Positions 36,886 to 53,685 are shown, counted from the stretch's first letter. The stretch: 54,996 nucleotides of DNA from a virus (IMGVR_UViG_3300045988_171436:1-54996), one strand, 5' to 3'. The notes: generated by a model from the letters alone, not told the origin. A program made the numbers and translations.

Positions 36886-36931
36886 AGTCTGTTGAGGATA
36901 AGCGGTTTAATTGTAACTCAATTCTTTTTGT

Positions 36932-36990: not shown

Positions 36991-37092
36991 GAACGCTTCT
37001 GTATTGATGATGTGACGCGGTTTCGTTTATTTCCATTCTATATATTGATGTCGATTTTTATGAATATAGAGCATACGGATAAACTGCAGTGT

Positions 37093-37127
37093 GATTAGAG
37101 TCAAAGTAATAGTTGTTGACTCTAATC
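37093..37127. terminator. Perfect 12-bp stem-loop downstream of acyltransferase gene
   Basis: GATTAGAGTCAA ... TTGACTCTAATC. Confidence 0.5.
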
Positions 37128-37145
37128 ATTGCAAAGTGACTTTAC

Positions 37146-38213
37146 TTAATGAAATTTATCTCGGATGAATTGTTGCGATGGTTTTTCAATGAATATATAT
37201 GACATATAGCTAATTGCCATTAATGTAAGCATGAATAAAATGAATACCTTGGGGCTGTAAAAAAGATCGCGTCCATAGCCAATCTTGTCAGCTAAATAAA
37301 CAACAATGATTTGTAAAGGAAAATGTAAAAGATAAGATGAATAACTGATATCGCCCAACCATTCAATTTTTTTCCCAAAATCGTTTCGTATTGCGCTAAT
37401 TGATACAAGGAAAAAGATTATGGAGGTAAATCCGAATAAGATAATTGAGAATATATCTGCTACTTGCAGGGTAAAGATAACTCCCCATGAGATCAATAGA
37501 AAAACACAAGCAAAAATAAAAAATAACTTTGCGCTAATATTTTTTATGGCCGCAATCGTAATTTTATAAGTCAGACCACCAATAAAGAAAGAGAATGCGC
37601 CGATCATTATGGGATTGTTAATTTTGAAAAAGTAGTACGACAATGCAACTATTAAAATTGATATGAATGTTGTTTTTGATGTGAACTTGCATAATATAAA
37701 AAATATCATGTACATAAGTACTTCAATCGACACGGACCATGTCGGGGCGTTGAAGGACCAACCTCGCTCAAATCCCCATGATTGAATCATCAATAAATTC
37801 AGAATGGCATGGTAAATGTCATTCATAGGATAAACAAAAAAATAATTATGACTTTTAAAGAAAATAATTTGTAATATTGCCACGGCAGCAAATGTAAATA
37901 TATAAAGTGGATATAATCTACTGACACGGTTAACTATAAAAGTTTTTGCTGAGGTTTTATTGCTGTGTATATTGTCAGCGTATAGATAAAAAAATATGAA
38001 TCCAGAAATCATAAAAAACAATTCGACAGCATATAAACCGTAATGATAAAAGACGGAAAAAAATTCATAAAAAGGTTGGCGGTTTATGATTATGTCAGAT
38101 GCAGCATTCTTTTTCATAAAAAAATGTTGCCAATGCCATAACACAACGGAAAGTGCGGCAAATCCTCTCAGAACATCCAGGGTATATATTCTCTTCCCAA
38201 AAACATTCGTCAC
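37146..38213 (-). CDS. Integral-membrane acyltransferase (acyltransferase-3 family; O-antigen acetylase-like)
   Basis: 355 aa, about 10 TM segments, N-terminal LDVLRGFAALSVVLWH motif; very AT-rich. Confidence 0.8.
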   Translation of the reverse strand: MTNVFGKRIYTLDVLRGFAALSVVLWHWQHFFMKKNAASDIIINRQPFYEFFSVFYHYGLYAVELFFMISGFIFFYLYADNIHSNKTSAKTFIVNRVSRLYPLYIFTFAAVAILQIIFFKSHNYFFVYPMNDIYHAILNLLMIQSWGFERGWSFNAPTWSVSIEVLMYMIFFILCKFTSKTTFISILIVALSYYFFKINNPIMIGAFSFFIGGLTYKITIAAIKNISAKLFFIFACVFLLISWGVIFTLQVADIFSIILFGFTSIIFFLVSISAIRNDFGKKIEWLGDISYSSYLLHFPLQIIVVYLADKIGYGRDLFYSPKVFILFMLTLMAISYMSYIFIEKPSQQFIRDKFH

Positions 38214-38704
38214 AACGAACCTCTTTTAATAAAGTCAAGTGATAATGAAAGATAAATATTGTAAACGAAAAAGCACTGGACTGGAACATATATCTCTGCC
38301 TATAATTTAACTAGGAAAATTTTACTAACGCAGTCATAATTCGTTCATGTATACCAGATGAAAGTACATGTTCTATGAAATAGGGTTTTGCCTGGAGTTT
38401 GAAGGTTTTTAACGATTATACCTGTTTAATCGACTCCCCATGTTTTTTGACATTATCCACCGCACACGATACTGGATGCCAGGTAAACTGATTTGCTGGC
38501 ATAAAGTCACTGAGAATTTTTTACCAACAATATCTTGCCACATCTTTTCCCGCACAGTTTCGGCAATAGAATCAGCGGGCAGCGGTCATCAATATTCACC
38601 AGACATTGATCTGCCGCACTATCTGACCGGTGTCCTGCTGAGAATACTAATTTCTTTTTTTGCAAGTGCTGTCCAATCATGATTGGGGGGGGGCCGGCGG
38701 AGTT

Positions 38705-38744
38705 GAAACCGCAGGTACGTTGTATGCAATAACGTGCTGCGGTT
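38705..38744. repeat. Conserved hairpin element, copy A (partner 39725-39765)
   Basis: GAAACC + stem + core ACGTTGTATGCAATAACGTGCT; stem AAACCGCAG/CTGCGGTTT. Confidence 0.6.
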
Positions 38745-38764
38745 TAATCTTATCAATTGAATAC

Positions 38765-39634
<870 letters not shown>

Positions 39635-39724
39635 CTAACCCTTTGAATTTACATAGCGCAAAAAGATACCTTTCCTCATAATGTGAGCTAATTTTATGTT
39701 TCGTTTGATGATCGGATCGGTCTC

Positions 39725-39765
39725 GAAACCCGTAGCCACGTCGTATGCAAGAACGTGCTACGACT
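39725..39765. repeat. Conserved hairpin element, copy B
   Basis: GAAACC + stem + core ACGTCGTATGCAAGAACGTGCT; stem GTAGCC/GCTAC differs from copy A but pairing is preserved. Confidence 0.6.
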
Positions 39766-40101
39766 GGCTGGTGAACTTCCGATAGTGCGAGTATTGAATG
39801 ATTTCCAACTGTTATCGATTTTGCGTATTTTTTGCATGAGAGGATTTTTACCTCCTCCCACCGATCCTCCATGGCTTTACGCCAGTGTCTCTGGTCTGCT
39901 ATGTGCCAGAAGCGGACGTTGCGGGACGTCAGATATCTAAAAAAACTAATGGTCCGCTTGGATAGATACTTACACAGGATGCAATAAAGAGTTTCTATTT
40001 CTTTGTGGTAGCAAACTTTGATTTCTGAAGGATAATACCTCCAATAAGTTGAAATCACATATATCGCTAAAGACTCTATACAACAACCAAGAGAGACCGC
40101 A

Positions 40102-41487
40102 ATGGATAGTGTCAGTAGTGTTGAGCGTTTAAGAACAAAAGCTTTTTATCAGTTGCTTGTGGATAGGCTTGGAACTGAGGCCTGGGCTGCTCGCAAAGCT
40201 GCATATTTCAAGCGCATAAGAGAGAAGGAGGCTAAGTTTAACATCAATCTGCCGATAGAGCCCCAGCTCTTCATACCAGCAGAAGATGACATCGACTGGT
40301 ACATTCTGGCGTCGTATCTGTCTCATGATTTTCCATATAGTGATGCTACTTACAGCAGCAGACGTATCTACCCCTATGCTATGGCCATCGGAGCTGTTGC
40401 AGACCAGCTTCGCAAAGTCCCATACGTCGATGATGTTCTGGACAAAATGCTAGCAAATAACAATAAACCAGAAACTCAAATTTTTGAGCTGCTGACGGCA
40501 TCGTTCTACCTAAAGAACGGCTATGAGGTTGCCTTCATCCCAGAAAGCAGCATTGTTTGGCCCGATGGAAAGACCAAAAAATCACCGGATATGCTTGTCA
40601 AGTTAGGTGATCTGGAGTTCTACGTCGAGTGCAAAAGGTCGGATAAGCAAACCAAGTACTCAAAGACAGAAGAGCAAGCCTGGGCCAACATCTGGCATCA
40701 ATTGAGCCAACATATGCTCAAAGTCGCACCATGGAACATTGTCGATATAATTTTCCATGAGCAGGTCGCCAGTGTGACTCCGGCAGACGTTATTAAAGCG
40801 GTGAATCTAGCCATTAAAGGGGGGACGGGAAAAGCTAATGAAGGTTCAATCAGTGTGGGAATACGAGCCATCGACAAATTAGGTCTCAGACGTCACTACA
40901 GAAAATTTTCAGTCAGAGCCAATAGCCCACAGCATGAATTGCTGGTATTTGGGGATCTAGATAGCAATGAGAAACGAAGTATCTCGACTATCGCTCAGAG
41001 AGTTATTCGTCCTGGCACCAATAACGATATTCTCAACATTTTTGTAGAGGATGTTGCAAAGTGCGTTGGAGCTCAGTGGCGCTGCGATCATGAGATTTCT
41101 CTTGGCCTCAGATCCAAGCATTTCAAGAGCTTGCTCAATGATGGAGTCATGCAGATTCCCCCTGATCGTGCTGGCGTGGTGCATATTTGGTATGAGACTT
41201 GCGAAGGCATAGATATTGAAGAACTACGTAGGGATAAAAACATGGAGCATATCTCGGCCTACGATGCCTCTAAAACAACTGTGTTGGGTGCTTTCCTGCA
41301 TGCCGTTAATTATTACCCATTAGAGGACAACTATGAGTGGGCTGAGACTGTTCAAGACTTTGCCCGTGTCCCGGATTTGATGGGGCTCTTCCTTAGACAG
41401 CCATTGATGCTTACATCTGACTCGACGCGTGGGGTCGAAGGTGTCACACATTGGGAGCAAGATAAGGCCGCAAAAAGCATGCGTTGA
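40102..41487 (+). CDS. PD-(D/E)xK nuclease-like protein with large unknown C-terminal region (461 aa)
   Basis: ELLTASFYLKNGYEV ... SPDMLVKLGDLEFYVECKRSDK gives the E / PD / ExK triad spacing. Confidence 0.5.
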   Translation: MDSVSSVERLRTKAFYQLLVDRLGTEAWAARKAAYFKRIREKEAKFNINLPIEPQLFIPAEDDIDWYILASYLSHDFPYSDATYSSRRIYPYAMAIGAVADQLRKVPYVDDVLDKMLANNNKPETQIFELLTASFYLKNGYEVAFIPESSIVWPDGKTKKSPDMLVKLGDLEFYVECKRSDKQTKYSKTEEQAWANIWHQLSQHMLKVAPWNIVDIIFHEQVASVTPADVIKAVNLAIKGGTGKANEGSISVGIRAIDKLGLRRHYRKFSVRANSPQHELLVFGDLDSNEKRSISTIAQRVIRPGTNNDILNIFVEDVAKCVGAQWRCDHEISLGLRSKHFKSLLNDGVMQIPPDRAGVVHIWYETCEGIDIEELRRDKNMEHISAYDASKTTVLGAFLHAVNYYPLEDNYEWAETVQDFARVPDLMGLFLRQPLMLTSDSTRGVEGVTHWEQDKAAKSMR

Positions 41488-41733
41488 AAGTGGCTGGAAT
41501 ATGGCGATACTGGGAACATAACTATTCACCGCGTTTCATAACCCACTCTCGGCTGATTAACACACGTTATCGTTGGAGGAAAGGACCAATTCCCTACGTC
41601 CGCTCCTCGCTCATAACAGACATAAACTTCAGTTATGGCATAAAGGTATGCATGCTGGGTGGGGAAAGTATGAAGGAAAAGAAGACTGCTGCGCCGTTTG
41701 TCGTCACGTTTATCTTCATTGGCTATGCAAGTC

Positions 41734-41793
41734 GTAATACAAGGTGGGACAAAACTGAGACACATAAGGCCTCGCAATGGCTTGCAAGGCTTT
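41734..41793. repeat. 59-bp imperfect direct repeat, copy 2
   Basis: Aligned to 36932-36990. Confidence 0.7.
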
Positions 41794-41869
41794 ACATGTT
41801 TTGATGTGGTGGGACGTGTGAGCGCAGTATTGATGGGGTAATGCTTTGAATTAGAAGCGGATTCTTATA

Positions 41870-41916
41870 ATTCGTAATGCGAAGGTCGTAGGTTCGACTC
41901 CTATTATCGGCACCAT
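41870..41916 (+). repeat. attR core: duplicated 3' end of tRNA-Thr
   Basis: Exact 47-bp copy of 7-53. Confidence 0.8.
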
Positions 41917-42264
41917 CTTTTCTCGTAAAATCATCAGGTTACTATTGCAGAGTTTTGCTTTGTTTAACACTAATGTGCAATTTTGCGCGTTGTAGGTGTG
42001 GCAAAATTGTGGCAAGTCCAGTGAGATTGTTTGTGGCTCAATGCAAGGGTATGCTAACAGCACGTGTTACCTTTTAGCTCCCGCCTATCTTGCCTTTTGA
42101 GCAATATTTCTACTTCTTGTTACGGACGTTGTCAGGCCTGCACGGTTAGGTTGAAAGGATGTTACTACAACAACATACACAGGCATTCAAACGCGGTTAG
42201 TCGTCCATTTGGGAATTTGCATTGACTTGGCTACCTGACCTGCCCCCACGATTAGATACAACAC

Positions 42265-43098
42265 TCAGTTAGTAACGTCGGAATCTTCATTCTCAGAATG
42301 ACCCTTTCTCCAGCCCGCTGCAAATTCAGACGGTGTCTGATAATTCAGCGTGGAGTGCGGGCGGCATTCGTTATAATCCTGCCGCCAGTCATTAATAATT
42401 TTCCTGGCATGAACGATATCGCTGAACCAGTGCTCATTCAAACATTCATCGCGAAATCGTCCGTTAAAGCTCTCAATAAATCCGTTCTGCGTTGGCTTGC
42501 CCGGCTGGATTAAGCGCAACTCAACACCATGCTCAAAGGCCCATTGATCCAGTGCACGGCAAGTGAACTCCGGCCCCTGGTCAGTTCTTATCGTCGCCGG
42601 ATAGCCTCGAAACAGTGCAATGCTGTCCAGAATACGCGTGACCTGAACGCCTGAAATCCCAAAGGCAACAGTGACCGTCAGGCATTCCTTTGTGAAATCA
42701 TCGACGCAGGTAAGACACTTGATCCTGCGACCGGTGGAAAGTGCGTCCATGACGAAATCCATCGACCAGGTTAGATTGGGCGCCGCCGGACGGAGCAGCG
42801 GCAGACGTTCTGTTGCCAGCCCTTTACGACGTCTTCTGCGTTTTACGCCCAGACCACTGAGGTGATAAAGCCGGTACACGCGCTTATGATTAACATGAAG
42901 CCCTTCACGGCGCAGCAACTGCCAAATACGACGGTAGCCAAAACGCCTGCGCTCCAGTGCCAGCTCAGTGATGCGCCCTGATAAATGCGCATCAGCAGCC
43001 GGACGGTGAGCCTCATAGCGGCAGGTCGACAGGGATAAACCTGTAAGCCTGCAGGCACGACGTTGCGACAGACCGGTCGCATCACACATCAACATCAC
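42265..43098 (-). CDS. IS3-family transposase OrfB (DDE integrase domain)
   Basis: DDE-type catalytic region (WSMDFVMD ... TDQGPEF ... [16 protein letters not shown]). Confidence 0.85.
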
Positions 43099-43121
43099 GG
43101 CTTCCCGCTTCTGGTCTGTCG

Positions 43122-43385
43122 TCAGTACTTTCGCCCAAGAGCCACCTGAAGCGCCTCTTTATCCAGCATGGCTTCGGCAAGCAGCTTCTTGAGTCTGGTG
43201 TTCTCTTCCTCAAGCGACTTCAGGCGCTTAACTTCAGGCACCTCCATACCGCCATACTTCTTACGCCAGGTGTAAAACGTGGCATCGGAAATGGCATGCT
43301 TGCGGCAGAGTTCACCGGCGGGTACCCCAGCTTCGGCTTCGCGGAGAATACTGATGATCTGTTCGTCGGAAAAACGCTTCTTCAT
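43122..43385 (-). CDS. IS3-family transposase OrfA (HTH)
   Basis: 87 aa, HTH plus leucine-zipper-like C-terminus, directly upstream of orfB. Confidence 0.85.
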
Positions 43386-43831
43386 GGGGATGTCCTCATG
43401 TGGCTTATGAAGACATTACTAACATCGGGGTGTACTAATCAACGGGGAGCAGGTCATACCCATTCGCATTTTACTTGGACATCTCTAACAAAAATGCAAC
43501 CAATACCCAGTTAAACTGGAAGATAGCTTTGAGCGAACAGCGGAAGTTCATAGTTGTTCAAATTTCTGATGAAAGCTTTACCAGCCTCGCTATGCCACTC
43601 CTTCCCACACTATGGATATTTTCCTTAATAGTCATACCGAACGAACTTGAGTGGCTTATGCGCAAATGTTCTAATCTTCTTGTCTCAGCCATCATTGCTC
43701 TGGTACTGGATTGTATTTCTTGGTATAGGATAGCCCCCTTTACAGGGGGGCAAATGTAAAGCAATCTTTTTTGCATTGAGTTTCTACTTCCAGTGAATGC
43801 GTATTTAATTATTAAATATTACTTATGTTGA

Positions 43832-45190
43832 TTAAACTTTGAAATTGCCATCTAAATGTTGTTCAAATCGCCCTGTTAATATCAATAACTGGATTAAAAG
43901 GGAGGATACTCTATTTCTGTTGGAGTCGATACCTAACATATATAAGTCACCGGCAACTGTATTTATATTGCCATGCTCAATGCAATTTGGTAGCATTTTT
44001 AAATCTTGAGTTTTTAGTATTTTTTTGTATTTTCGTCCGATTAATTCAACAACCTTTTTCGTCCCAATCTCAGATATAATCTTATATGGACAATTGAAAA
44101 GCTCAAAAAAAATCTCATATTCTTCTTGAGACTTTTCTAGCAATTCATTTAGTTCTAAAAAAAAGTCTTTCCCATTAATATATTCTTTCCATATGTCCAT
44201 ACGTACAACATTTTTTTTATCATAGTATGGTTCTAAACTTGAAATCGGTTTTCCAATGACAATATCATTATTTGTTGATTTATAGTTGAACTTAACATAG
44301 CCCTTTAGTAAATTGTTATTACCCTCTTCTGTATTTTGGTGGTTTTTATTTATTGCTGTCATAATCATGGTTTTTGATTTTTGATTCCACGAATTGTCAT
44401 TATCTATCAAATTTGAATCTACAAGTATGTTATTTATAGTGCTATTATTGCAACTTAATATTTTTATTTTACCTTCTTCAATATACGGAGCATCAGAATC
44501 GAGAGATAGTTTATACCAACGTGATTTATCCCCATCTTTTTTTATTGCCAACCCAAAAGGCTCATTGGTTCCTACACCAACATATAATGGCAAATAAATT
44601 TTTTTGCCATTTACTTGGTTGCATTTTATTATTTTTAGATGAATTTTTTCTTTTTCTACATGTAGAAAATTATCTTTAAAATAGTCACGCAACTCTGTGT
44701 GATTTATTTCATTAAAGTCAATTTGGCTTATTTTTCTTGAAACATCAAATTGCTTATCCCATTGAGGAAACTCGAAAAATTCTAAATCAATGACTACACC
44801 ATCCTTAAGGCCTAGTTGTCTTAAATCGTTTAAGATACTATCATTTTGTATTACCGATTCTTTCCTGGAAACCTCAATGCGATAATCTAAACCCATAAGG
44901 TGATAATTGAAGTTATGATATAATGATGTCCTGAAATCCCATCGTCCAAATAAGTCCTTTTCGATACCACGATCCTCTTTGATGAATTTAAAAAGTTCAA
45001 TCCCAAAAAAAGAATTTTCCACATCATTAATTAAAGAAAAATTGAATTTTTCGTTTGAATATATGAAGCTCTTTAAAATATAAGGTAGGTTTTTGTCCGG
45101 GCCTAATATTTCATCTGTCATTATTACATCTGACTTAATTAAATCATTTGTTTTTTTAATTCTTTCATTTATTGATTCAATAAATCTCAT
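43832..45190 (-). CDS. Hypothetical protein (452 aa), very AT-rich
   Basis: Long ORF, Asn/Lys/Ile-rich; no recognised motif. Confidence 0.5.
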   Translation of the reverse strand: MRFIESINERIKKTNDLIKSDVIMTDEILGPDKNLPYILKSFIYSNEKFNFSLINDVENSFFGIELFKFIKEDRGIEKDLFGRWDFRTSLYHNFNYHLMGLDYRIEVSRKESVIQNDSILNDLRQLGLKDGVVIDLEFFEFPQWDKQFDVSRKISQIDFNEINHTELRDYFKDNFLHVEKEKIHLKIIKCNQVNGKKIYLPLYVGVGTNEPFGLAIKKDGDKSRWYKLSLDSDAPYIEEGKIKILSCNNSTINNILVDSNLIDNDNSWNQKSKTMIMTAINKNHQNTEEGNNNLLKGYVKFNYKSTNNDIVIGKPISSLEPYYDKKNVVRMDIWKEYINGKDFFLELNELLEKSQEEYEIFFELFNCPYKIISEIGTKKVVELIGRKYKKILKTQDLKMLPNCIEHGNINTVAGDLYMLGIDSNRNRVSSLLIQLLILTGRFEQHLDGNFKV

Positions 45191-45808
45191 ACATCCCTCA
45201 CTTGTTTTTATTGAAATGATTTTGATATTTTAAGGTAAATACATGAAAAATAAAATGAGAAAAAGTATATAAAACGATACACTTTGTATAAGAATAGTGC
45301 CACATACCTAAACCTCTACTTATTATTTTTTCTTTACGATTTAATATCATAGATTTATCCTCATTTATCCAAACGTATAAGTCTGTATGAAACATTATAT
45401 CTCACGAATTTAGCCTGTCTCAGAAAAGACTGAACATAATTACGGTTTAGCCCAGTTAGGAAAAGTGAAGCTGATGGGCTTCTTTATTTCAGGGAGCTTT
45501 AGGCTCCAACCAAGCGGTAACGTCACCGGCACCGTTGATAAAGTCAAAAAGGATGAACGACTGTTCCAGTCTCATGCAAGAATTAATTACTTGATATCCA
45601 GCATGAAAAATAAAACTCACCGGCATTACCATTTGCCACTACATCTATATATCTCATGCGTATACTTGTATTCATTATTATTCCCCATGGTCAAATACTA
45701 TCACTCCTTTGTATATTACAATGGTTTAATGCAATAAACTGCTAAAGCACTGCATTTAAACTTTTATCCAACGAGTGAAGGCCATTGTAATTAACTTAAA
45801 AGCATGAG

Positions 45809-46807
45809 CTAACTTTGCTTATCATTCAATTTGTCAAGTAGTATTTTTAACGTAAGCAAAAGTCGCTTTTGAAATTGGTTGGTGATTTCTGGGAGTCGAT
45901 GATTTATTTTAGTATCACCACTATAAAATAAATTTCGACTTTTATACGACTCAAAACGTCCTTCTGATGTTTGGTCAGGGAAAAGCAAATATTTTTCAAT
46001 GCATGCATTGTTCAGGATAACTCTATATGCTTTTGGCATATCGTCTAAAAGACCATCATGTATGATATGGTTTCGAACACATTCTATTTCATTAATAAAT
46101 GGACATTGCTCAAATAAAGATCCTTCATAATTATTTAAGCTCACTTTCTTTTTGTCGCCATATTGAGAGTTTTTGGCTGTCAATTTAACATAAGTAGAGA
46201 ACTGTGTTTTTAAATTTTCAATTTCTATAGCTAGTTTTGTTATGTAGTCAAGCAAACTGTGCATACGGATATAAATAAAACTAAGTAATGCAAAGAGCTT
46301 GGTCACGACTGGTGATGTCACATATCTTATACCGTCCTCCTCTTTAATGTTAGGGTAAAACAAGGGTTCAAAATTTAACGTGTAATAAAACTCCCCTTGA
46401 AGTTGCATCACTTCCTTGCTGCACTCCTGTATGCTACTTACAATTTTACGGCAATCAAAAAGGTAAAGGGCTTTGTTTACGTCAGTATTTCCTTTAAATT
46501 TATCAATAAATAAAATAAATGTTTCTTTTGAAACTACGGATTCTGAATTCAGACCTGCTGTTGATAAAAACTCAGGGGCCATATAAAGGAACTTGTGGTA
46601 GTTTTCTAACCCATCAAAAATGCTATTAGCTATAGCATCATGGATATTAACGCATAATGCATCGATCGCATAAAGATGATTCTCTCTGTTTGGGTACCAT
46701 CCTCCTTGAGGATCATGTATAAAGTAAATATCTTCACCTCCAATAGATTCAGTTGGTATCCCTTTTAAAGTCAAATACATGTTTTCATGTGAAGGTATCA
46801 TATCCAT
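45809..46807 (-). CDS. Hypothetical protein (332 aa) with HEPN-like Rx4H motif
   Basis: AT-rich; C-terminal ECVRNHIIHDG matches the R-x4-H signature; surrounding helices predicted. Confidence 0.5.
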   Translation of the reverse strand: MDMIPSHENMYLTLKGIPTESIGGEDIYFIHDPQGGWYPNRENHLYAIDALCVNIHDAIANSIFDGLENYHKFLYMAPEFLSTAGLNSESVVSKETFILFIDKFKGNTDVNKALYLFDCRKIVSSIQECSKEVMQLQGEFYYTLNFEPLFYPNIKEEDGIRYVTSPVVTKLFALLSFIYIRMHSLLDYITKLAIEIENLKTQFSTYVKLTAKNSQYGDKKKVSLNNYEGSLFEQCPFINEIECVRNHIIHDGLLDDMPKAYRVILNNACIEKYLLFPDQTSEGRFESYKSRNLFYSGDTKINHRLPEITNQFQKRLLLTLKILLDKLNDKQS

Positions 46808-47157
46808 AATTTTTCTGGAATTCCTCTTATGAAGCGAAAAACTGAGATGTGTACATAGGTTAATTTAAACAAGATAATCAAAATTTGAAAGCAATAATTT
46901 TTCATCTCAGGGGTTATCAAAAGACGCAGGGGGTTATATGGGTTTTTCTTTACTCAACCTAACGTCCGCTCCTGGCACAGAGCGGAAAAGCTCACTGGGC
47001 CAAAGGTCTGCTGTGAGCGAGGAGAGGAAGTTCCAGTGTTCTGCAACAGACGAAGGCCCTAATCAATGGATAGCTGGTAATGGTTAATATGCCATTGCTC
47101 TAAGTTAAAAGAATCTGTGTGCTCCTGGCTCTGGTAGTCTCAATGAAGATAATATTA

Positions 47158-50100
47158 TCAAGGTGAAGTGATCGTTTTAAATACATCAAAAAAATAAGAT
47201 GGGAAGCCTTGTAGCATTACTTCAAATCTCTCTGGGTTTTGTCGAATCATGTGTCGGGCGTCAAAACTAACTTGAATAGCACCTTGAGTCGTTCCTTCTG
47301 CAAGACACTGGGCAATTACGCGTTCAGCAAATCCCGCTTCAAAAAAGGCAATGCAACTCTGATTCGGAAGTCCATATTTCAATCGCTTCTGAAGAAGATC
47401 AACATATTCTCTAAAAACCTCACCCGCCTGTTCTGAAGAGAACGCGAGAAAGGATTCCTTTACCGCTGCGAGCAACAGCGCAAACTCAAAGCCAAATGTT
47501 TGTTCACACAGGTCTACAACCACATCAAGATCAAATTTTCTTTGGTTCGCACCATAGGGATAGGATGCACCCAATTTGTCAAGCCGTTGAACGAGAGCTG
47601 CAAACGAATCTCCAGCCAGCCACCCCAATGCTAATTTCTTAAGTGCCCCATTAGGAACTATGTCGCTCAACCGTTTTTCATTAGATAAGAGTACTAAAAG
47701 CGGCCATAGCATATCAAACAGGTGATCGGCAGAGGTTGCTCCCTCGAGTGCGTTTGCATTTGTAGTGACCCATGATTCGATTGCCAACGCTTGATCAATA
47801 CCTAACAAAGTCCGCCCGAAACGCTTCTGGATCGCTGTATCTGGAACAAAAAGTTCGATCCTTCGCGCCACAGACTCGAAGATATCTGTCAGGAGTATTT
47901 TTTGCTCTTCAGTGGCAAGCGAGTAGGCAAGTGTTTCAGTAACCAATTCTCGAGAGTTGTCCACAAAAGTTTCGGGCTGAACATCACTACGATATGTCAT
48001 TAAGAAGCTTTCAACAGCTTCAATTATCTTTTTCTTGGATTTAAGTTGTTCGATTAGTGAAGCGACCGAAAAGTTCTGTTTAGGAATATTGATAGGAACG
48101 CTCTCTACCCACTTTAAAAGAGCTTCCCAGTCATTGACAATGTAAGTGGCTACTTCAGCAGAGCTTGGAGAGCTTAGAATAACTGTTCCGAGGTCATTTC
48201 GCAGAGGATCGAAAAGAGAAAGCAATGTACTTCCAGTTGGCTCAGCACTATCAGGATTGATTAGATTGATCGTTTCTTGCCAACGGTACGTCTTTGCGAA
48301 ACGCTCGTCATAGAGACGGGGGTCAGTGAAAATAACAGTACCCTCACCGTACATTCCGGCACGTCCAGCGCGTCCCATGAGATTATGGAAGTCGCGTACT
48401 TTGATCGATTCACGCCCCTGCATTGCGCTTGTTACAAGTAGGTATCGAATCGGAAGGTTAACACCCTGTGCAAGCGTCGAGGTGCAGATGATCAATCGAA
48501 TAAGGCTTTGCCTCATAGCATACTCAATAGCCAGACGAACACCTTGGGGAGTGTTGCCGTGATGAGCAAAAATGCCTAAAGCAGCTGCTTGTGTCAAATA
48601 TGCATTAGCACCAAAATTACGTTCGAAGAGATAAACAAAGCGACGAATCTCATTAGGGTCACTATGGGCAGAAGGTGGCTCAAGTGAAATTCCACGACGA
48701 AAAATATCTTCGGCGGCCTCACGAACAATTTTTGCAGCAGAAGACTTTCTTCCTGTGAAAATAGCAACCCCACCATTTTTCAGCAGACGTAAACTAAGAT
48801 ATAACGCTATGGAGCCACTCTCCTGAGTAGGGAAAAAACGATCCTTTCTTTCCTTAGGTAATCGAGGCATTTTTTCTGAAACAATAACTCGCGGGACAAA
48901 GAATTTCTGATCGCTATCAGAGGCCACATTGAACTGAAGTTGACCATCTTTACCTTTCGGAAGGCTGGCAAAGGCAATGAGTCTACTAGCCTGTAAGGCT
49001 CTACTGGAGACAACCTTTGAACCGTCATTTAATAGCCATGCAGCAACAGAAGCAGCATTCTGAATTACTGCTGAAATCAACACGCTCTGGGCATTTTCGT
49101 GTAGCATTCGCTTAATGGATGTTAACAGCAGTTCATAAGTTACACCCCGGCTGCCTGTGTCAAACTGATGCCCTTCGTCATAAACTACCAATCCAGCTTT
49201 CTGAACAATGTCTGGCTCTTGTCGAAGTATGTAAAGAAGCTTTTCCGGGGTAAGAATAATGACTTGTGGCTTCGATTCGACCTCTGAGTCAAATATTCCA
49301 GATTCCAAATCGAGAAAATCTGATAAGTTAGAAAAATCGAACTCGACATCTGGTTGCAACGCGTCACTGGGTTGATTGACGTCATAGCCATCATCCTTGA
49401 ATGCCTTTTCAAGATCGTTTGCTATCTCTTGGCATAGTGCGCGGAAGGGGGCAATAACTAAAGCCAATTTCGTACGAGCAGAAAGAAATGCCGACCGAAT
49501 AATAAGCTCGGTAGCTCTAGATTTCCCGGCGCTCGTCGGCATCTGAACAACACCTGATGTCCCTTTATACAATCCAGCCTCTCCTAGCAAGCGCTGAGAT
49601 GGCCACATTTCCTTAATTGACATAGAACGCGATAAATATGTATCCCACTTTTCTTGCGGGAGGTTGCTATAGCGTGGAAGTAATGTCCAAGCAGAATTAG
49701 CGATGCGAGTGGCACTAATCGCTCCGAGCAAATCGGCCATAAGTAGGTCATGTGCAGACGCATGGCTATAGGCCCATTCGCGCAATGATTTAATAGCATC
49801 ATTGGCTTTCTGTCGGCCATTCAGGCCATTTCTGAAGTGTTGGCTCAAAACATCCAAAATATCTTTTGCACGTGAAGACTCTAGTGTCTCGTTGGTATGC
49901 TCCCAAGGCCGATCCATCGCAGTTTTAACTGCAATAGCTAAAGTATCGTGCTTAGGAAAATCTAGTTGGCTCAGTTTAGATAATTGGACTGCAGCATTTC
50001 CGGGTACATCACCAAGATAGAAACCAGCAGCGGCAAGTATGCGAAGATTGAAGGAGAGTTCTTTGTTAAGCAGGGAATCCTCAAAAGCTTGAAGGACTTG

Positions 50101-50373
50101 AGCCGAAAAAATAACCTCATCCAGTGGGGTTTGGGATTGTGCTTCAATCGAATTGCCGATGGTCTTAGCCACCACTTCGGACGCAAAGTCACCGACAGTA
50201 CCAACAGCTAATGGAAACTGCATCTCCAAATTGAGATCATCAGGAAGCTCTATATGGTCTCCTTCAGGAACTCCATACTCAAACATTTTTCCTTTTGATA
50301 GCGTAACTGCCGCCGCATATCGAGCACGTTTTTTAGGCTTCATTTTCTGCCCTCCAATAGAGAGCGTGAACAA
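47158..50373 (-). CDS. hamB: SF2 DExH helicase (Hachiman HamB-like)
   Basis: Walker A QMPTSAGKSRA, motif II VYDEGHQF, motif VI HNLMGRAGRAG; 41-nt overlap with upstream gene. Confidence 0.6.
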   Translation of the reverse strand: MFTLSIGGQKMKPKKRARYAAAVTLSKGKMFEYGVPEGDHIELPDDLNLEMQFPLAVGTVGDFASEVVAKTIGNSIEAQSQTPLDEVIFSAQVLQAFEDSLLNKELSFNLRILAAAGFYLGDVPGNAAVQLSKLSQLDFPKHDTLAIAVKTAMDRPWEHTNETLESSRAKDILDVLSQHFRNGLNGRQKANDAIKSLREWAYSHASAHDLLMADLLGAISATRIANSAWTLLPRYSNLPQEKWDTYLSRSMSIKEMWPSQRLLGEAGLYKGTSGVVQMPTSAGKSRATELIIRSAFLSARTKLALVIAPFRALCQEIANDLEKAFKDDGYDVNQPSDALQPDVEFDFSNLSDFLDLESGIFDSEVESKPQVIILTPEKLLYILRQEPDIVQKAGLVVYDEGHQFDTGSRGVTYELLLTSIKRMLHENAQSVLISAVIQNAASVAAWLLNDGSKVVSSRALQASRLIAFASLPKGKDGQLQFNVASDSDQKFFVPRVIVSEKMPRLPKERKDRFFPTQESGSIALYLSLRLLKNGGVAIFTGRKSSAAKIVREAAEDIFRRGISLEPPSAHSDPNEIRRFVYLFERNFGANAYLTQAAALGIFAHHGNTPQGVRLAIEYAMRQSLIRLIICTSTLAQGVNLPIRYLLVTSAMQGRESIKVRDFHNLMGRAGRAGMYGEGTVIFTDPRLYDERFAKTYRWQETINLINPDSAEPTGSTLLSLFDPLRNDLGTVILSSPSSAEVATYIVNDWEALLKWVESVPINIPKQNFSVASLIEQLKSKKKIIEAVESFLMTYRSDVQPETFVDNSRELVTETLAYSLATEEQKILLTDIFESVARRIELFVPDTAIQKRFGRTLLGIDQALAIESWVTTNANALEGATSADHLFDMLWPLLVLLSNEKRLSDIVPNGALKKLALGWLAGDSFAALVQRLDKLGASYPYGANQRKFDLDVVVDLCEQTFGFEFALLLAAVKESFLAFSSEQAGEVFREYVDLLQKRLKYGLPNQSCIAFFEAGFAERVIAQCLAEGTTQGAIQVSFDARHMIRQNPERFEVMLQGFPSYFFDVFKTITSP

Positions 50374-51172
50374 ATTTCATAAGCGATTTAGCATGTATCA
50401 CAACCAACATAAGGTTTTTAATATTTTCATGCGAAGTGCAGTCTGTAGTTTTAGATATATGAACCGGATCATAAAGACTTGAACAAAAAACAGCCGCCGC
50501 CCCTGTCATTCGTACATAAGGGACATCCAACCCTTCTTGAAAGCGTTCCACGCGATCTGCACCTTCTTCATCTTGATGATCAATTAAACGGCGCTTCATC
50601 GCATTAAGGGATTCTGAAATTCTATACACATCCTTTATCGAGTCGATAACGGCGTCTTGCAATCTAGGCTTTGCTTTCTTACCACTGAGTTGTGCTTTCG
50701 ACTCAAAAGAAATCAAGATATCTTTTGTAGATGGCCGTGATGGGCCTATGCCATCAAACTTAAACGCTAAGACATCTGTTCCCTTTGGGGACTCGTTGCG
50801 AACCATTTTGTTGTCATATCGGGTACGTGGAACCCAAAAACCAAAATGGCTTTCAAGTAGATCCGCGATAAGGATTTCAGCAAAATCACCGGAGCGCGTT
50901 GCTGGGCCAAAATCTTCAGACTCATCAGGAAACACCAAGTCTCTCAAATACTCGGCTCGCGATTTGTTAGTCCCTCTGCGCAGGCGATCAATTTGGCTAT
51001 CAAGACAGTAATGCTCACGGAAATGTTTGGCCCATGCGGATAGTACAAGCCCTGCTTCAAGATCGATTTCGAGCTCGTATACCTCTACCTCATTGCCGTC
51101 AGAAGTGGTTATGCTATGTTCAGCTTTTTTGAGCCAAGCTGAGTACGGTTGTCCAGCATTCATTGTAACCAT
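50333..51172 (-). CDS. hamA: HamA-like (DUF1837-type) protein, putative PD-(D/E)xK-like
   Basis: 279 aa immediately upstream of and overlapping the helicase; GTDVLAF ... ISFESKAQL acidic/Lys pattern. Confidence 0.45.
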   Translation of the reverse strand: MVTMNAGQPYSAWLKKAEHSITTSDGNEVEVYELEIDLEAGLVLSAWAKHFREHYCLDSQIDRLRRGTNKSRAEYLRDLVFPDESEDFGPATRSGDFAEILIADLLESHFGFWVPRTRYDNKMVRNESPKGTDVLAFKFDGIGPSRPSTKDILISFESKAQLSGKKAKPRLQDAVIDSIKDVYRISESLNAMKRRLIDHQDEEGADRVERFQEGLDVPYVRMTGAAAVFCSSLYDPVHISKTTDCTSHENIKNLMLVVIHAKSLMKFVHALYWRAENEA

Positions 51173-51472: not shown

Positions 51473-52837
51473 ATGGATATCTTAGCGTTAAAAGAATTAC
51501 TCCGCCCTGTGGTGGGAAACTTGAAAGATCACTGCACTAACGAAAAAATCCCTGATCTCTGTCGTCACTTGGGTCTACCTGTGCCCAAAGAAGAAGGATC
51601 CAAGCGCGAGCGCTTGCATGGAGCCTTTGATTTACTCGATGACGCAGATATGCCGGAGTTTGCAAGAGCGCTTTTGGCGCAGAAGGTTTTCAATCCCAGC
51701 ATACGCAACAATATCCAGGACCTCCTATGGGCGGACGAGCCCATCATCGATATACCCAAGCGTCATCGTCGTGAACTGGCAGAAGCTCTGCAACCATTTG
51801 AATTATTTGGCCACTGGGAAAATTTCAAGCGTTTATTAAATGATCTGTTTGTTTTTCCGTTGGATTTAAGTGAAATGTTTTCGATTCATGAGACAGGGAT
51901 TCTTGGCGAAATTCACCGACATTTTGTACGAAATCCTGAAGACGGTGACGTGGCATGGTTATTTGAAAAACTACAGGTTGTCGAACTATCAGCTCCACGT
52001 TTCCGTAGGTGGCTCGAAGGTTTAGTCTCTGCGGACGTGCAGATCAGTATCGAAAGGCAGTTAGCAAAAGTTGAGGCCGTTAATAAAGTTTTAAGAACCT
52101 GTGGAGCTGAGCTTATCCATAGCTCTGATGCTGAAGGCTATCCGGTTTTCAGCCTGATATCGTTGCGGACATTTCGGGGGCGCCCTAAGAACATTATTTT
52201 TGCCTCTCTCACCAAACCCGATATTCGCTTGAGTGACTCTCTTAATAACGAAATTGAAATTCTTTCAAACCCCAATCAGGTTTTGATCTATGATCGTCCA
52301 TTAAGTACCGAGGGATTGAGTTGGCGTGAACTGCAGGCATGGTGGGCAGATTTTATTTGCGAAGAGAATAGCGAAGAGGCAAAAATTTCGCTTTATCGAC
52401 GATTGCAGCAAAGTTTGCCTAATTCGTCTCCGCCCCAGAAAAAATTTTTCAAGGAATTCTTTCGACAATATAGGTCAGCAATTTATGACTTACCTGCATT
52501 GCTACCAGAAGTTTGGCTGCACTGGGATCCCAAAACCGTATCTGAGAGAGGCGCTGGAGCATTACTCAATCATCGGATGGATTTTCTTTTGCTAATGCCT
52601 GATGGCAGTAGGGTTGTGATCGAAATCGATGGCATTCAACATTACTCAGATGAAAAAGGTAGGGCAAGTAAGAGTAAGTATGCAGATTTGGTTGCAGCTG
52701 ATCGTAGCTTAAAATTGGCAGGTTATGATATTTATCGTTTTGCAGGTGTCGAACTTCATCACGACGATGCTTCATACAAAATAAAGTACTTTTTTGATAC
52801 TTTATTTAAATATCATGGGATAAAAATAAAATTTTAG
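51473..52837 (+). CDS. Protein with C-terminal DUF559-like endonuclease domain (454 aa)
   Basis: C-terminal RVVIEIDGIQHYSD ... RSLKLAGYDIYRFAG resembles the DUF559/Vsr-like core; N-terminal 330 aa unknown. Confidence 0.5.
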   Translation: MDILALKELLRPVVGNLKDHCTNEKIPDLCRHLGLPVPKEEGSKRERLHGAFDLLDDADMPEFARALLAQKVFNPSIRNNIQDLLWADEPIIDIPKRHRRELAEALQPFELFGHWENFKRLLNDLFVFPLDLSEMFSIHETGILGEIHRHFVRNPEDGDVAWLFEKLQVVELSAPRFRRWLEGLVSADVQISIERQLAKVEAVNKVLRTCGAELIHSSDAEGYPVFSLISLRTFRGRPKNIIFASLTKPDIRLSDSLNNEIEILSNPNQVLIYDRPLSTEGLSWRELQAWWADFICEENSEEAKISLYRRLQQSLPNSSPPQKKFFKEFFRQYRSAIYDLPALLPEVWLHWDPKTVSERGAGALLNHRMDFLLLMPDGSRVVIEIDGIQHYSDEKGRASKSKYADLVAADRSLKLAGYDIYRFAGVELHHDDASYKIKYFFDTLFKYHGIKIKF

Positions 52838-53427: not shown

Positions 53428-53685
53428 TTACTTTTTTTTATTAAACCATGCCTCATGTAGCTCTTGCAGTTTCACCCAAAAATATGCATCTGTATTGAAA
53501 ATTATCGCGAGTTGAAAAGCTTCCTCAAGAGTTATATTTCGCTCATTTTTTATTATTTCCAAAATTTTTTCATATGATGTATCCATCAGTTCAGCAAGTC
53601 TTGCGGGAGGCATATCCAATGGTTTCAAGAATTCTTCGTATAAAATCTCTCCGACAGTTGAAGGTGCAGCATTTATCGTCCTCAT
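53428..53685 (-). CDS. HigA-like HTH antitoxin/regulator (orphan)
   Basis: 85 aa, GEILYEEFLKPLDMPPARLAELMDTSYEKILEIIKNERNITLEEAFQLAIIFNTDAYFWVKLQ matches the HigA-family pattern; AGGAGG RBS. Confidence 0.55.
   Translation of the reverse strand: MRTINAAPSTVGEILYEEFLKPLDMPPARLAELMDTSYEKILEIIKNERNITLEEAFQLAIIFNTDAYFWVKLQELHEAWFNKKK

What the first reader, a model, noticed from the sequence alone, without database searches (positions are those of the whole stretch)
43832..46807. Two very AT-rich unknown genes next to the IS element, one with a HEPN-like RNHIIH motif
The 332-aa and 452-aa ORFs are on the same strand, far more AT-rich than the prophage backbone, and lie between an IS3-family element and a Hachiman-like pair, a typical defence-island context. 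The 332-aa protein carries ECVRNHIIHDG, matching the R-x4-H HEPN signature found in Abi-type RNases. The 452-aa protein has no recognisable motif. The 618-bp gap between them suggests separate promoters, but a functional pairing cannot be excluded.
Basis: partly seen in the sequence, partly recalled or inferred. Interest (0 to 1): 0.7.

Follow-up and report, generated by a model that had tools for sequence, protein, structure and literature searches.

The report
Two unrelated solo defence-island genes
The two AT-rich genes are real but are not a pair: a recombination scar joins two independent single-gene modules, one a probable HEPN-type RNase from a widespread unannotated family and the other a very rare orphan protein with no known relatives, and both are plausible but untested anti-phage genes.

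Summary
ORFs of 452 aa (43832-45190, -) and 332 aa (45809-46807, -) have 29-33% GC. They lie between an IS3 element and a genuine Hachiman pair.

- **Location.** The genes are outside the prophage. The SfI/SfII-like prophage ends at a tRNA-Thr half-site near 41870. The genes belong to a separate thrW island.
- **Not a pair.** The 618-bp gap is a recombination scar. It holds a 30-codon remnant of a DUF4365 nuclease gene (45675-45583), fused at 45585 to foreign sequence that carries the 452-aa gene. The two genes occur apart almost everywhere. Only 2 of 5426 complete E. coli genomes hold both. Each also exists as a one-gene integron cassette in Vibrio.
- **332-aa protein.** Its family is widespread and has no Pfam or PADLOC model. 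D187-x3-K191 and R245-[N/D]-x3-H250 are invariant and sit where HEPN RNases carry their catalytic motifs. Neighbours in unrelated taxa are known defence systems. Kinship to Pfam's Cthe_2314-like HEPN is suggestive only.
- **452-aa protein.** It is a true orphan, with 24 representatives among 1.84 billion proteins and no sequence or fold relatives. Its function is inferred only from context.

Neither protein has been tested.

The parts
45809..46807 (-). 332-aa gene: stand-alone HEPN-superfamily candidate RNase. It has an N-terminal ~105-aa domain followed by a four-helix HEPN-like core.
   Evidence: ORF. Family of 262 clusters. AF2 model with pLDDT 92.9. Invariant residues. dN/dS 0.154.
46058..46075 (-). 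Codons R245-N-H-I-I-H250: the Rx4H motif at the C-terminal end of model helix 236-251.
   Evidence: R245 and H250 are invariant in 43/43 and 27/27 sequences; position 246 is N or D. Position in the model. HEPN criterion from PMC3710099.
46235..46249 (-). Codons D187-Y-I-T-K191: an invariant Dx3K in model helix 166-197, corresponding to the HEPN helix-2 acidic Ex3[KR] motif.
46808..46986 (-). Upstream flank that travels with the 332-aa gene. It is shared at 90% identity with the O26:H11 locus.
   Evidence: blastn boundary window 45585-46986 versus L002.
45676..45808 (-). Intergenic spacer between the 332-aa gene and the former DUF4365 gene (O26-type sequence).
   Evidence: Alignment A1.
45583..45675 (-). 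Remnant of a DUF4365 (PD-(D/E)xK-type nuclease) gene: 30 codons (MNTSIRMRYIDVVANGNAGEFYFSCWISSN) followed by TAA.
   Evidence: The intact O26 gene (284 aa) matches PF14280 DUF4365 at 3e-13.
45585..45585 (.). Recombination junction. O26-type sequence lies to the right and EC01307-type sequence to the left.
   Evidence: The two blastn alignments abut at 45585. Alignment A1.
45191..45584 (-). Upstream flank of the 452-aa module, with a sigma-70-like site (45423-45394) and a Shine-Dalgarno GAGGGA. Only the proximal ~105 bp is shared with the TA054 copy.
43832..45190 (-). 452-aa gene: orphan family. The model has an N-terminal helical region, a beta-rich core (~66-328) and a C-terminal helical domain (~330-447).
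   Evidence: ORF. 21 clusters in 5.8 billion and 24 representatives in 1.84 billion. AF2 model with pLDDT 88.4. dN/dS 0.169.
44519..44788 (-). Codons for the invariant polar cluster D135, E137, (E140), E181, K182, H184, G207, N209, R224: the putative catalytic centre.
   Evidence: These are invariant in the 31-sequence superfamily alignment A6. They lie on strands 129-142, 181-191 and 197-206 and the following loop.
43526..43831 (-). Downstream flank of the 452-aa module with a G+C-rich hairpin (GCCCCCC-TGTAAA-GGGGGC, about 43733-43752). The flank ends at the IS3 element.
42265..43385 (-). IS3-family (ISSen4-like) transposase ORFs forming the left boundary of the mosaic. This is context, not part of the modules.
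41870..41916 (+). 3' half of tRNA-Thr (thrW), which is the prophage attR. From here rightwards the window is identical to the thrW island of strain CUVM53.
47158..51172 (-). Hachiman hamA/hamB (context).
   Evidence: PADLOC HamB E=0 and HamA 3e-105.

Best explanation
The region is a recombination mosaic inside a thrW-linked defence island that lies next to, not inside, an SfI/SfII-like prophage. It contains two unrelated, independently mobile, monocistronic modules.

Module A (45585-46986) encodes a 332-aa protein of a widespread, unannotated family with a HEPN-type core. I infer that it is a metal-independent endoribonuclease. It probably acts as a homodimer that brings two R245-x4-H250 motifs together, with D187/K191 in support. 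I infer that it stays silent until infection, perhaps through its N-terminal ~105-aa domain, and then cleaves host or phage RNA in an abortive-infection-like response. In most E. coli this gene is followed by a DUF4365 nuclease gene. Here that gene was cut off after codon 30.

Module B (43526-45585) encodes a 452-aa orphan protein. It also functions alone. I infer a single-polypeptide conflict or defence protein whose beta-rich core carries a hydrolase-like centre (D135, E137, E181, K182, H184, N209, R224). The most likely activity is a metal-dependent nuclease or phosphodiesterase, with the C-terminal helical domain serving regulation or oligomerisation.

Shown: gene integrity, mosaic structure, independence of the two genes, conservation patterns, genomic contexts and the absence of known relatives. 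Inferred: RNase activity, anti-phage role, dimerisation, and any catalytic role of the 452-aa protein.
For: Mosaic structure and independence:
- The two halves match different genomes with a shared breakpoint at 45585.
- A 30-codon DUF4365 remnant lies in the gap.
- The 332-aa gene is in 84/5426 complete E. coli genomes and the 452-aa gene in 3/5426; both together are in 2.
- No neighbour is conserved across 31 diverse loci of the 332 family.
- The 332-family gene stands alone in a Pectobacterium ICE, in two small plasmids, and with an FRG gene elsewhere.
- It is a one-gene integron cassette in V. diabolicus.
- The 452-family gene is a one-gene integron cassette in V. parahaemolyticus and V. 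campbellii, with attC repeats and an integron-type integrase nearby.
- It follows Gabija in E. coli TA054 and is solitary in another gammaproteobacterium and in an archaeon.
- The E. coli copies of the 452-aa gene share only -105 to +142 bp around the CDS.

HEPN assignment of the 332-aa protein:
- D187, K191, R245 and H250 are invariant across two clades.
- The AF2 model (pLDDT 92.9) has helices 108-146, 166-197, 236-251 and 301-331. The Rx4H lies at the end of the third helix and there is an insert between the second and third.
- This matches the published HEPN definition (PMC3710099).
- PF18730 is the only recurrent Pfam hit.
- Three motifs are collinear with a genuine PF18730 protein.

Defence role:
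- Neighbours of the 332 family include full-length PtuA, AriAB, QatC/QatD, PDC-S15 and PDC-M01B (Pfam view).
- In the window the genes lie among PD-T4-3, Hachiman and an AbiJ-like gene.
- About 18% of unknown-function V. cholerae integron cassettes tested were anti-phage. These include a HEPN-only protein (Esos) and a DUF4365 nuclease (Divona) (bioRxiv 10.1101/2024.07.02.601686).
- Both genes are under purifying selection.
Against: - No experiment bears on either protein.
- HEPN kinship lacks a significant profile or structure match. PF18730 scores are at most 17.4 bits against a 27.1-bit threshold.
- hhalign against a true PF18730 protein gives probability below 1%, and 20/200 shuffles reach its score.
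- Foldseek against PDB is not significant; the best HEPN hit is 7bxo_F at E=10.
- I could not inspect 3D coordinates, so the proximity of D187 to R245/H250 is unverified.
- For the 452-aa protein nothing links the conserved residues to a known catalytic fold. Foldseek against PDB and BFVD gives TM scores of 0.15 or less among the top-ranked matches, and PDB and Pfam profile searches find nothing.
- Integron cassettes and genomic islands also carry many non-defence genes.
- The 332 family is absent from GenBank phage genomes.
- No convincing sigma-70 consensus was found in the 179 bp that travel with the 332-aa gene.
Confidence: 0.62

Rival explanations
1. The two genes form a genuine two-component system, with a HEPN effector plus a 452-aa sensor or partner, assembled by module swapping in which the 452-aa gene replaced the DUF4365 partner.
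For: The genes share a strand and are adjacent. The arrangement is preserved at 100% identity in two complete E. coli genomes and one metagenome contig. In O26-type strains the 332-aa gene is also followed by a gene on the same strand.
Against: The junction lies inside the DUF4365 coding sequence and leaves a 30-codon stump, which is not a clean module exchange. The 452-aa gene brings about 395 bp of its own upstream sequence. Both genes occur alone in many taxa and as separate one-gene integron cassettes. No co-occurrence is seen among 31 loci of the 332 family.
Confidence: 0.05
2. The 332-aa HEPN protein is not an anti-phage effector. It is instead a toxin-like or addiction/competition module that stabilises mobile elements or acts against rival elements, or it is a non-catalytic RNA-binding HEPN.
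For: It is carried on ICEs, small plasmids and integron arrays, and sits next to CcdAB in Pectobacterium. HEPN domains are common in toxin-antitoxin systems (PMC3710099).
Against: No conserved small antitoxin-like partner or MNT gene lies next to it. The catalytic motif is strictly conserved, which argues against a non-catalytic role. The neighbours are predominantly anti-phage systems.
Confidence: 0.15
3. The 452-aa protein has a function unrelated to defence, for example a niche-adaptive enzyme, an anti-defence or counter-defence factor, or a selfish-element gene. Its presence in defence islands would then be hitch-hiking.
For: It has no defence-associated domain. Most integron cassettes of unknown function tested were not anti-phage: about 82% in V. 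cholerae. In one genome it sits beside sulfate-assimilation genes and in an archaeon among housekeeping genes. The family is extremely rare.
Against: In three independent E. coli contexts it lies in variable island regions: next to Hachiman, next to Gabija, and in a CP4-like island. It has the patchy, HGT-type distribution and low GC typical of defence cargo. Its invariant D/E/K/H/N/R cluster suggests an enzyme.
Confidence: 0.3
4. One or both genes are decaying remnants silenced in this AT-rich stretch and are no longer functional in this strain.
For: The neighbouring DUF4365 gene is truncated and an IS3 element abuts the region. The AT-rich DNA is a likely target of xenogeneic silencing (inference).
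Against: Both ORFs are full length with every family-invariant residue present. dN/dS is 0.15-0.17. The sequence is identical in independent strains.
Confidence: 0.08

Closest known systems
Cthe_2314-like HEPN family (Pfam PF18730; Anantharaman et al. 2013, PMC3710099)
   Same: It is the only recurrent Pfam hit for the 332-aa family, covering residues ~177-251 (helix 2 to the Rx4H). Three motifs are collinear with a genuine member from V. diabolicus: LY.FDC.K..SSI, IR..S..D and VRN..IH, with similar spacing. Like Cthe_2314, the family has no fixed partner ('None detected' in the paper's table).
   Different: All scores fall below the gathering threshold (17.4 bits or less against 27.1). hhalign probability is below 1% and not better than shuffles. 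The 332-aa protein has an extra N-terminal ~105-aa domain, and a beta-hairpin with an invariant PD...GR motif between helices 3 and 4.
[quoted passage not shown]
   Same: These are one polypeptide with one HEPN domain and a conserved Rx4-6H. They are carried on mobile elements and in integron cassettes and cause growth arrest or death on infection (PMC3710099; bioRxiv 10.1101/2024.07.02.601686). The 332-aa family shares the architecture, the mobility and the cassette form.
   Different: The 332-aa family matches no Pfam or PADLOC model of these families. The Esos sequence could not be retrieved, so identity with it is untested. No phenotype is known.
Integron-cassette single-gene defence systems (Darracq et al. 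2024 preprint)
   Same: Both families occur in Vibrio as one-gene cassettes bracketed by attC repeats. Elsewhere they occur in mobile islands, which is the distribution pattern described for validated cassette systems.
   Different: Neither family is among the 16 V. cholerae systems as far as could be checked. The 452-aa protein is larger than the 'streamlined' cassette proteins. The E. coli copies have no attC remnant and carry their own flanks.
DUF4365 nucleases (PF14280): Divona, and the REase domain of short-pAgo partners
   Same: The truncated gene in the gap is the 5' end of a DUF4365 protein. The intact O26 version matches PF14280 (3e-13) and the PADLOC model Aga_REase-PNTD1-PNTD2 (5e-12). 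Divona is a DUF4365 cassette protein with homologues in E. coli mobile elements.
   Different: Only 30 codons remain here, so no function is expected. The O26 protein showed no crr6 domain. Its relation to Divona was not tested by sequence.
PD-(D/E)xK-type and other metal-dependent nucleases, as a working analogy for the 452-aa protein
   Same: Invariant acidic residues sit on one beta-strand (D135-x-E137). A basic/His pair sits on another strand (K182-x-H184), with additional invariant N and R residues.
   Different: There is no canonical (D/E)xK spacing and no Pfam, PADLOC, PDB or Foldseek match. The resemblance is by eye only.

Membership tests
HEPN superfamily (332-aa protein) | Conserved Rx4-6H motif | tested here: met
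   R245 and H250 are invariant in 43/43 (A2) and 27/27 (A8, two clades at ~21% identity).
HEPN superfamily (332-aa protein) | Polar residue (N/D/H) immediately after the conserved R | tested here: met
   Position 246 is N in 42/43 and H in 1 (A2). In the joint alignment it is N or D. Criterion from PMC3710099.
HEPN superfamily (332-aa protein) | [quoted passage not shown] | tested here: met
   The AF2 model (pLDDT 92.9) has helices 108-146, 166-197, 236-251 and 301-331, with the motif at 245-250 and an insert at 198-235. This was tested at secondary-structure level only; 3D packing was not inspected.
HEPN superfamily (332-aa protein) | Second conserved acidic residue in helix-2, typically Ex3[KR] | tested here: met
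   D187-x3-K191 is invariant in both alignments and lies inside helix 166-197. It is D rather than E.
HEPN superfamily (332-aa protein) | Significant profile or structural similarity to an established HEPN family | tested here: inconclusive
HEPN superfamily (332-aa protein) | Metal-independent endoribonuclease activity | not testable with these tools
   Requires biochemistry.
Pfam PF18730 HEPN_Cthe2314 | Score at or above the gathering threshold (27.1 bits) | tested here: not met
   The window protein gives no hit at E<=1. The best family member scores 17.4 bits. 6/43 members reach E<0.1.
Named Abi HEPN families (AbiD/F, AbiJ, AbiU2, AbiV) and any PADLOC v2.0.0 system | Match to the family's Pfam or PADLOC model | tested here: not met
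   No hit for either protein in Pfam, PADLOC or NCBIfam. DefenseFinder was not available.
Two-gene defence operon (332 + 452) | Conserved co-occurrence and synteny of the two genes across lineages | tested here: not met
   Both genes occur together in 2/5426 E. coli genomes, against 84 and 3 separately. The 452-aa gene is in 0/31 diverse loci of the 332 family apart from one near-identical contig. A scar lies in the gap.
HEPN + DUF4365 pair | Conserved adjacency beyond one lineage | tested here: not met
   The pair is seen only in O26-type E. coli. It is absent from the 31 loci and from relatives at 80-81% identity.
Integron gene cassette (Vibrio homologues of both genes) | A single ORF bracketed by attC recombination sites in a same-strand array near an integron integrase | tested here: met
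   452 family: L037 gene 7001-8362, with attC-type repeats at 6855-6982 and 8364-8491 and an integrase in L040. 332 family: L056 gene 5001-5984, with repeats at 4834-4966 and 5981-6102. This does not apply to the window copies, which have no attC remnant.
PD-(D/E)xK nuclease (452-aa protein) | alpha-beta-beta-beta-alpha-beta core with D...(D/E)xK on adjacent strands, or a match to a clan member | tested here: inconclusive
   Invariant D135/E137 and K182/H184 lie on predicted strands. There is no canonical spacing and no model or fold match.
Prophage cargo (moron) | Location between the attachment sites of the prophage | tested here: not met
   Prophage homology ends near 41916 at the tRNA-Thr half-site. 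The same island lies next to an intact tRNA-Thr without the prophage in CUVM53.

The most novel reading that the evidence does not exclude
The 452-aa protein founds a new family of single-protein immune or conflict effectors. Its fold has no detectable relative in PDB or among predicted viral structures. The family is spread thinly by horizontal transfer from Vibrio integron cassettes and E. coli defence islands to archaea, and it uses a previously undescribed catalytic centre (D-x-E ... E-K-x-H ... G-T-N ... R). Separately, the 332-aa family would be a new, widespread clade of stand-alone HEPN RNase defence genes missed by current defence-finder models.
Probability: 0.35. Interest if true: 0.7.

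Novelty: new member of a known kind. Interest (0 to 1): 0.45.

Why it matters
If the 332-aa family is an active anti-phage HEPN RNase, it adds a sizeable family (at least 262 clusters at 90% identity plus a sister clade, from Proteobacteria to Planctomycetes and Chloroflexi). This family is invisible to Pfam and PADLOC, so current defence censuses under-count it.

If the 452-aa protein is a defence effector, it would be a new fold and a new catalytic constellation. It already comes packaged as a minimal 1.5-kb cassette, which makes it easy to test.

The analysis also carries a methodological lesson. Adjacency of two AT-rich genes in a defence island is not evidence of a system. Here the intergenic gap itself records the recombination event that brought them together.

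Tried and rejected

**Sequence profiles against PDB.** No relatives were found for either family.

**DUF4365 as conserved partner of the HEPN gene.** Tested by phmmer, clustering and Pfam batches on 31 loci, and rejected.

**Bridge to PF18730.**
- The short Gluconobacter relative is a clear homologue (hhalign 98.3%) but has no PF18730 hit itself.
- Its own homologue search found only an unannotated sister clade.
- Relatives of a genuine PF18730 protein could not be collected from metagenomes or plasmids.
- The single-sequence hhalign was not significant.

**Motif readings of the 452-aa protein, by eye on alignment A6.**
- PLD HKD motif: rejected because K186 is not conserved.
- SGNH hydrolase blocks: rejected because the order is wrong.
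- Pol-beta nucleotidyltransferase G[SG]...DxD/E: rejected because there is no conserved glycine.
- GIY-YIG: rejected because of wrong spacing and order.
- The weak Pfam hits (TRM5 methyltransferase, Neprosin) are not recurrent in the family.

**Other.**
- The small ORF 45198-45395 upstream of the 452-aa gene is rejected as a gene, because its ATG is ACG in EC01307.
- Literature search by protein accession found nothing.
- The held supplement of Darracq et al. contains none of the identifiers.
- The V. parahaemolyticus integron-defence paper (Getz et al.) is not in the library.
- tblastn of the 332-aa protein against GenBank phages found no match despite a PHROG hit.
Full report
**1. Observation**

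The window contains two intact ORFs on the minus strand at 43832-45190 (452 aa) and 45809-46807 (332 aa), 618 bp apart. Their GC content is 28.9% and 33.2%. The whole window is 47.7% GC, Hachiman is about 44% and the prophage structural region is 51-60%.

To the left lies an IS3-family element (ORFs 42265-43385), annotated ISSen4-like in a strain with the same island. To the right lie HamB and HamA, which match PADLOC with E=0 and 3e-105. Further defence genes are nearby:
- PD-T4-3 at 38765-39589 (3.8e-140).
- A protein with an AbiJ N-terminal domain at 51473-52837.

The 332-aa protein carries ECVRNHIIHDG, spanning R245 to H250. The description is therefore accurate.

An Rx4H on its own is weak evidence. 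It appears in 24% of shuffles of this protein, and R[NDH]x3H appears in 4%. The 452-aa protein has a non-conserved Rx4H at R87.

**2. Where the genes sit**

Window positions 1 to about 41.9 kb are an SfI/SfII-like prophage. They are 97% identical over 87% of a 23-kb query to phage vB_EcoM-689R6, and match SfII and SfI at similar identity.

The prophage homology stops near 41916. From about 41870, which is the 3' half of tRNA-Thr, the window is base-for-base identical to the thrW island of E. coli CUVM53. In that strain an intact tRNA-Thr is followed by the same series: IS3, 452-aa gene, 332-aa gene, hamB, hamA and the AbiJ-like gene. There is no prophage at that site there. ARAGORN finds no intact tRNA in the window.

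The two genes are therefore cargo of a separate thrW island, not of the prophage.

**3. The gap is a scar and the genes are not a pair**

A megablast of the region against 5426 complete E. coli genomes splits it into two halves with one shared breakpoint.
- Window 45585-46986 matches O26:H11-type genomes at 90% identity.
- Window 43526-45585 matches strain EC01307 at 90.4% identity.

In O26:H11 the 332-aa orthologue is followed, 136 bp downstream, by a 284-aa DUF4365 protein. That protein matches PF14280 at 3e-13 and the PADLOC model Aga_REase at 5e-12.

The window keeps that intergenic spacer and the first 30 codons of the DUF4365 gene (45675-45583, MNTSIRMRYIDVVANGNAGEFYFSCWISSN, then TAA). 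It then switches at 45585 to the sequence that lies upstream of the 452-aa gene in EC01307.

Prevalence in complete E. coli genomes:
- The 332-aa gene is in 84 of 5426; 82 of these are the O26 type.
- The 452-aa gene is in 3.
- Both together are in 2.

One 'Clostridiales' MAG contig carries the same arrangement at 98-100% identity.

**4. The 332-aa protein**

*Family and conservation.* It has no Pfam, PADLOC or NCBIfam match and one PHROG of unknown function. A database search finds 262 clusters at 48-91% identity. They come from Gamma-, Beta- and Alphaproteobacteria, Planctomycetes, Chloroflexi and Nitrospirae. A sister clade of ~356-aa proteins is linked through a Gluconobacter plasmid protein (hhalign 98.3%).

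In a joint alignment at about 21% identity the invariant residues are G85, L144, R161, S184, L186, D187, K191, R245, H250, L275, P277, D278, G283, R291, F294, N302, L305 and P306. Position 246 is N or D.

*Structure.* The AlphaFold2 model is confident (pLDDT 92.9, pTM 0.91). Its elements are:
- a small N-terminal domain;
- long helices at 108-146 and 166-197;
- an insert at 198-235;
- helix 236-251;
- a beta-hairpin at 260-276;
- helix 301-331.

*Comparison with the HEPN definition.* The reference analysis of the HEPN superfamily gives these features (PMC3710099):
- The residue after R is usually N, D or H.
- A second acidic residue sits in helix-2, typically as Ex3[KR].

All four features are met here, with D187-x3-K191 as the helix-2 motif.

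*What is not met is a significant match to any established HEPN family.*
- PF18730 (Cthe_2314-like HEPN) is the only recurrent Pfam hit, but always below threshold. Six of 43 members reach E<0.1 (best 0.0014), the O26 orthologue scores 0.0047 and a Roseivivax relative 0.1.
- Foldseek against PDB is not significant. A HEPN toxin (7bxo_F) appears only at rank 17.
- A genuine PF18730 protein lies in the cassette next to a 332-family member in V. diabolicus. It aligns collinearly on three motifs: LY.FDC.K..SSI, IR..S..D and VRN..IH. However, 20 of 200 shuffles reach the same score.

I therefore place the protein in the HEPN superfamily on motif and topology (probability about 0.75). I do not file it as a PF18730 member.

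**5. Context of the 332-aa family**

No neighbour is conserved across 31 loci from different genera. The nearest neighbours are a mixture of established defence proteins:
- Septu PtuA (6e-203);
- fused PARIS AriAB (1e-210);
- QatC/QatD (7e-195 and 1e-120);
- PDC-S15 and PDC-M01B;
- type I restriction R subunit, KAP NTPase, ABC-3C and others.

Individual contexts:
- In Pectobacterium (80% identity) the gene stands alone in an ICE beside CcdAB and ArdC.
- Another lineage (81%) is a two-gene insertion with an FRG-domain gene between core genes.
- On Roseivivax and Gluconobacter plasmids it is monocistronic.
- In V. diabolicus it is a one-gene integron cassette. The gene is at L056 5001-5984 and attC-type repeats lie at 4834-4966 and 5981-6102.

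It is absent from GenBank phage genomes. dN/dS against the O26 orthologue is 0.154.

**6. The 452-aa protein**

*Rarity.* It has no family match in any library. Only 21 clusters were found in 5.8 billion proteins, from E. coli, V. parahaemolyticus, V. campbellii and metagenomes. An exhaustive profile search of 1.84 billion representatives returned 24 proteins.

*Conservation and structure.* In a 31-sequence superfamily alignment the invariant residues are D135, E137, K182, H184, G207, N209 and R224. E140, E181, P201, Y203, G205, P368 and D415 are nearly invariant.

The AF2 model is confident (pLDDT 88.4, pTM 0.89). It shows an N-terminal helical region, a beta-rich core and a C-terminal helical domain. 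The invariant residues lie on strands 129-142, 181-191 and 197-206 and on the following loop.

*No detectable relatives.*
- Foldseek against PDB and against BFVD gives only noise, with TM of 0.15 or less among the top-ranked matches.
- PDB sequence profiles give nothing.
- Member-wise Pfam scans show no recurrent hit.

*Context.*
- In V. parahaemolyticus and V. campbellii it is a one-gene cassette of the chromosomal integron. The gene is at L037 7001-8362, with attC-type repeats at 6855-6982 and 8364-8491 spaced 1509 bp apart. An integron-type integrase lies in L040.
- In E. coli TA054 it follows Gabija GajA/GajB.
- In EC01307 it lies in the variable part of a CP4-like island.
- In another gammaproteobacterium it is a solitary insertion beside cys genes.
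- A distant member is encoded in an archaeal contig.

The E. coli and Vibrio copies are similar only within the CDS. The E. coli copies share just -105 to +142 bp around it, including a downstream hairpin. dN/dS against EC01307 is 0.169.

**7. How it most likely works**

*Shown:*
- Two intact, selected, independently mobile monocistronic modules are joined by an illegitimate recombination event that destroyed a DUF4365 gene.

*Inferred for the 332-aa protein:*
- It is a metal-independent RNase of the HEPN type, probably active as a dimer.
- It is kept inactive until infection and then arrests growth by RNA cleavage, as in the single-gene Abi HEPN proteins.
- A precedent exists: a HEPN-only integron cassette (Esos) and a DUF4365 cassette (Divona) of V. 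cholerae were shown to protect against phages. About 18% of unknown-function cassettes tested were anti-phage (bioRxiv 10.1101/2024.07.02.601686).

*Inferred for the 452-aa protein (weakly):*
- It is a stand-alone conflict or defence enzyme.
- Its invariant D/E/E-K-H/N/R cluster forms a hydrolytic, probably nucleolytic, centre.

My estimates:
- Independence of the two genes: about 0.9.
- HEPN RNase for the 332-aa protein: about 0.7.
- Anti-phage role of the 332-aa family: about 0.6.
- Anti-phage role of the 452-aa family: about 0.4.
- Nuclease or hydrolase chemistry for the 452-aa protein: about 0.3.

**8. Novelty and verdict**

The 332-aa protein is a new, unmodelled family within a well-known kind, the stand-alone HEPN effectors. 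The 452-aa protein is an orphan whose kind is unknown, and it carries most of the upside.

The finding as framed is ordinary for a defence island. The proposed pairing is wrong and the prophage attribution is wrong. The HEPN call survives testing at the level possible here. Interest is moderate.

Noticed in passing
window 51473-52837 (+): A 454-aa protein has an AbiJ N-terminal domain 3 (PF18860, 1.7e-22). Its C-terminus gives only a weak DUF559/endonuclease-like hit instead of the usual AbiJ HEPN domain, and it has no PADLOC match. It may be an AbiJ-type sensor fused to a different nuclease effector.
   Followed up: no
window 36500-41900 (prophage right arm: 37146-38213, 38765-39589, 40102-41487): The region after the tail-fibre assembly gene is a variable cargo slot. 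Here it holds an acyltransferase, PD-T4-3 (a LEM-3-like GIY-YIG protein) and a 461-aa protein (phrog_37220, weak AHJR-like REase hit). Related prophages carry SIR2, protein kinase or DUF6650 genes at the same place.
   Followed up: partly
window 41870-42264 and 42265-43385: The thrW island starts with an IS3 (ISSen4-like) element about 350 bp after the tRNA half-site and has no integrase. The IS may have replaced the island's integrase end. Further along in CUVM53 the island carries TraJ/TrbJ/TrbL conjugation genes.
   Followed up: no
L004 (URVP01000023.1, 'uncultured Clostridiales bacterium' MAG contig): The contig carries the 332-aa and 452-aa genes at 98-100% identity to E. coli in the same arrangement. 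It is probably an E. coli contig mis-binned into a Clostridiales MAG.
   Followed up: no
L056 4125-4847 and 5001-5984 (V. diabolicus integron): Two adjacent integron cassettes each encode a different HEPN-type protein: a genuine PF18730 member and a 332-family member.
   Followed up: partly
L051/L052 6001-7401: A distant homologue of the 452-aa protein (about 20% identity, E=3.7e-20 to the family profile) lies in an archaeal genome among thermosome, Rpb7, Spt4 and ribosomal S24e/S27e genes. The orphan superfamily therefore crosses domains.
   Followed up: partly
L044-L047 4855-5745 + 6001-6984: An FRG-domain protein (PF08867) plus a 332-family HEPN gene form a two-gene insertion between conserved core genes in several metagenome contigs. 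An FRG neighbour also appeared once among the 31 genome loci. This is a possible lineage-specific pairing.
   Followed up: no
L017 and L020 961-7020; L009 491-7011: The 332-family gene overlaps by a few bases the last gene of complete QatABCD operons (L017 and L020). In L009 it overlaps the last gene of a restriction-R/PtuA/PtuB-like operon. This suggests co-transcription with other systems in some genomes.
   Followed up: partly
window 53428-53685 (-): A HigA-family antitoxin gene is annotated in CUVM53 without an obvious HigB toxin partner next to it.
   Followed up: no
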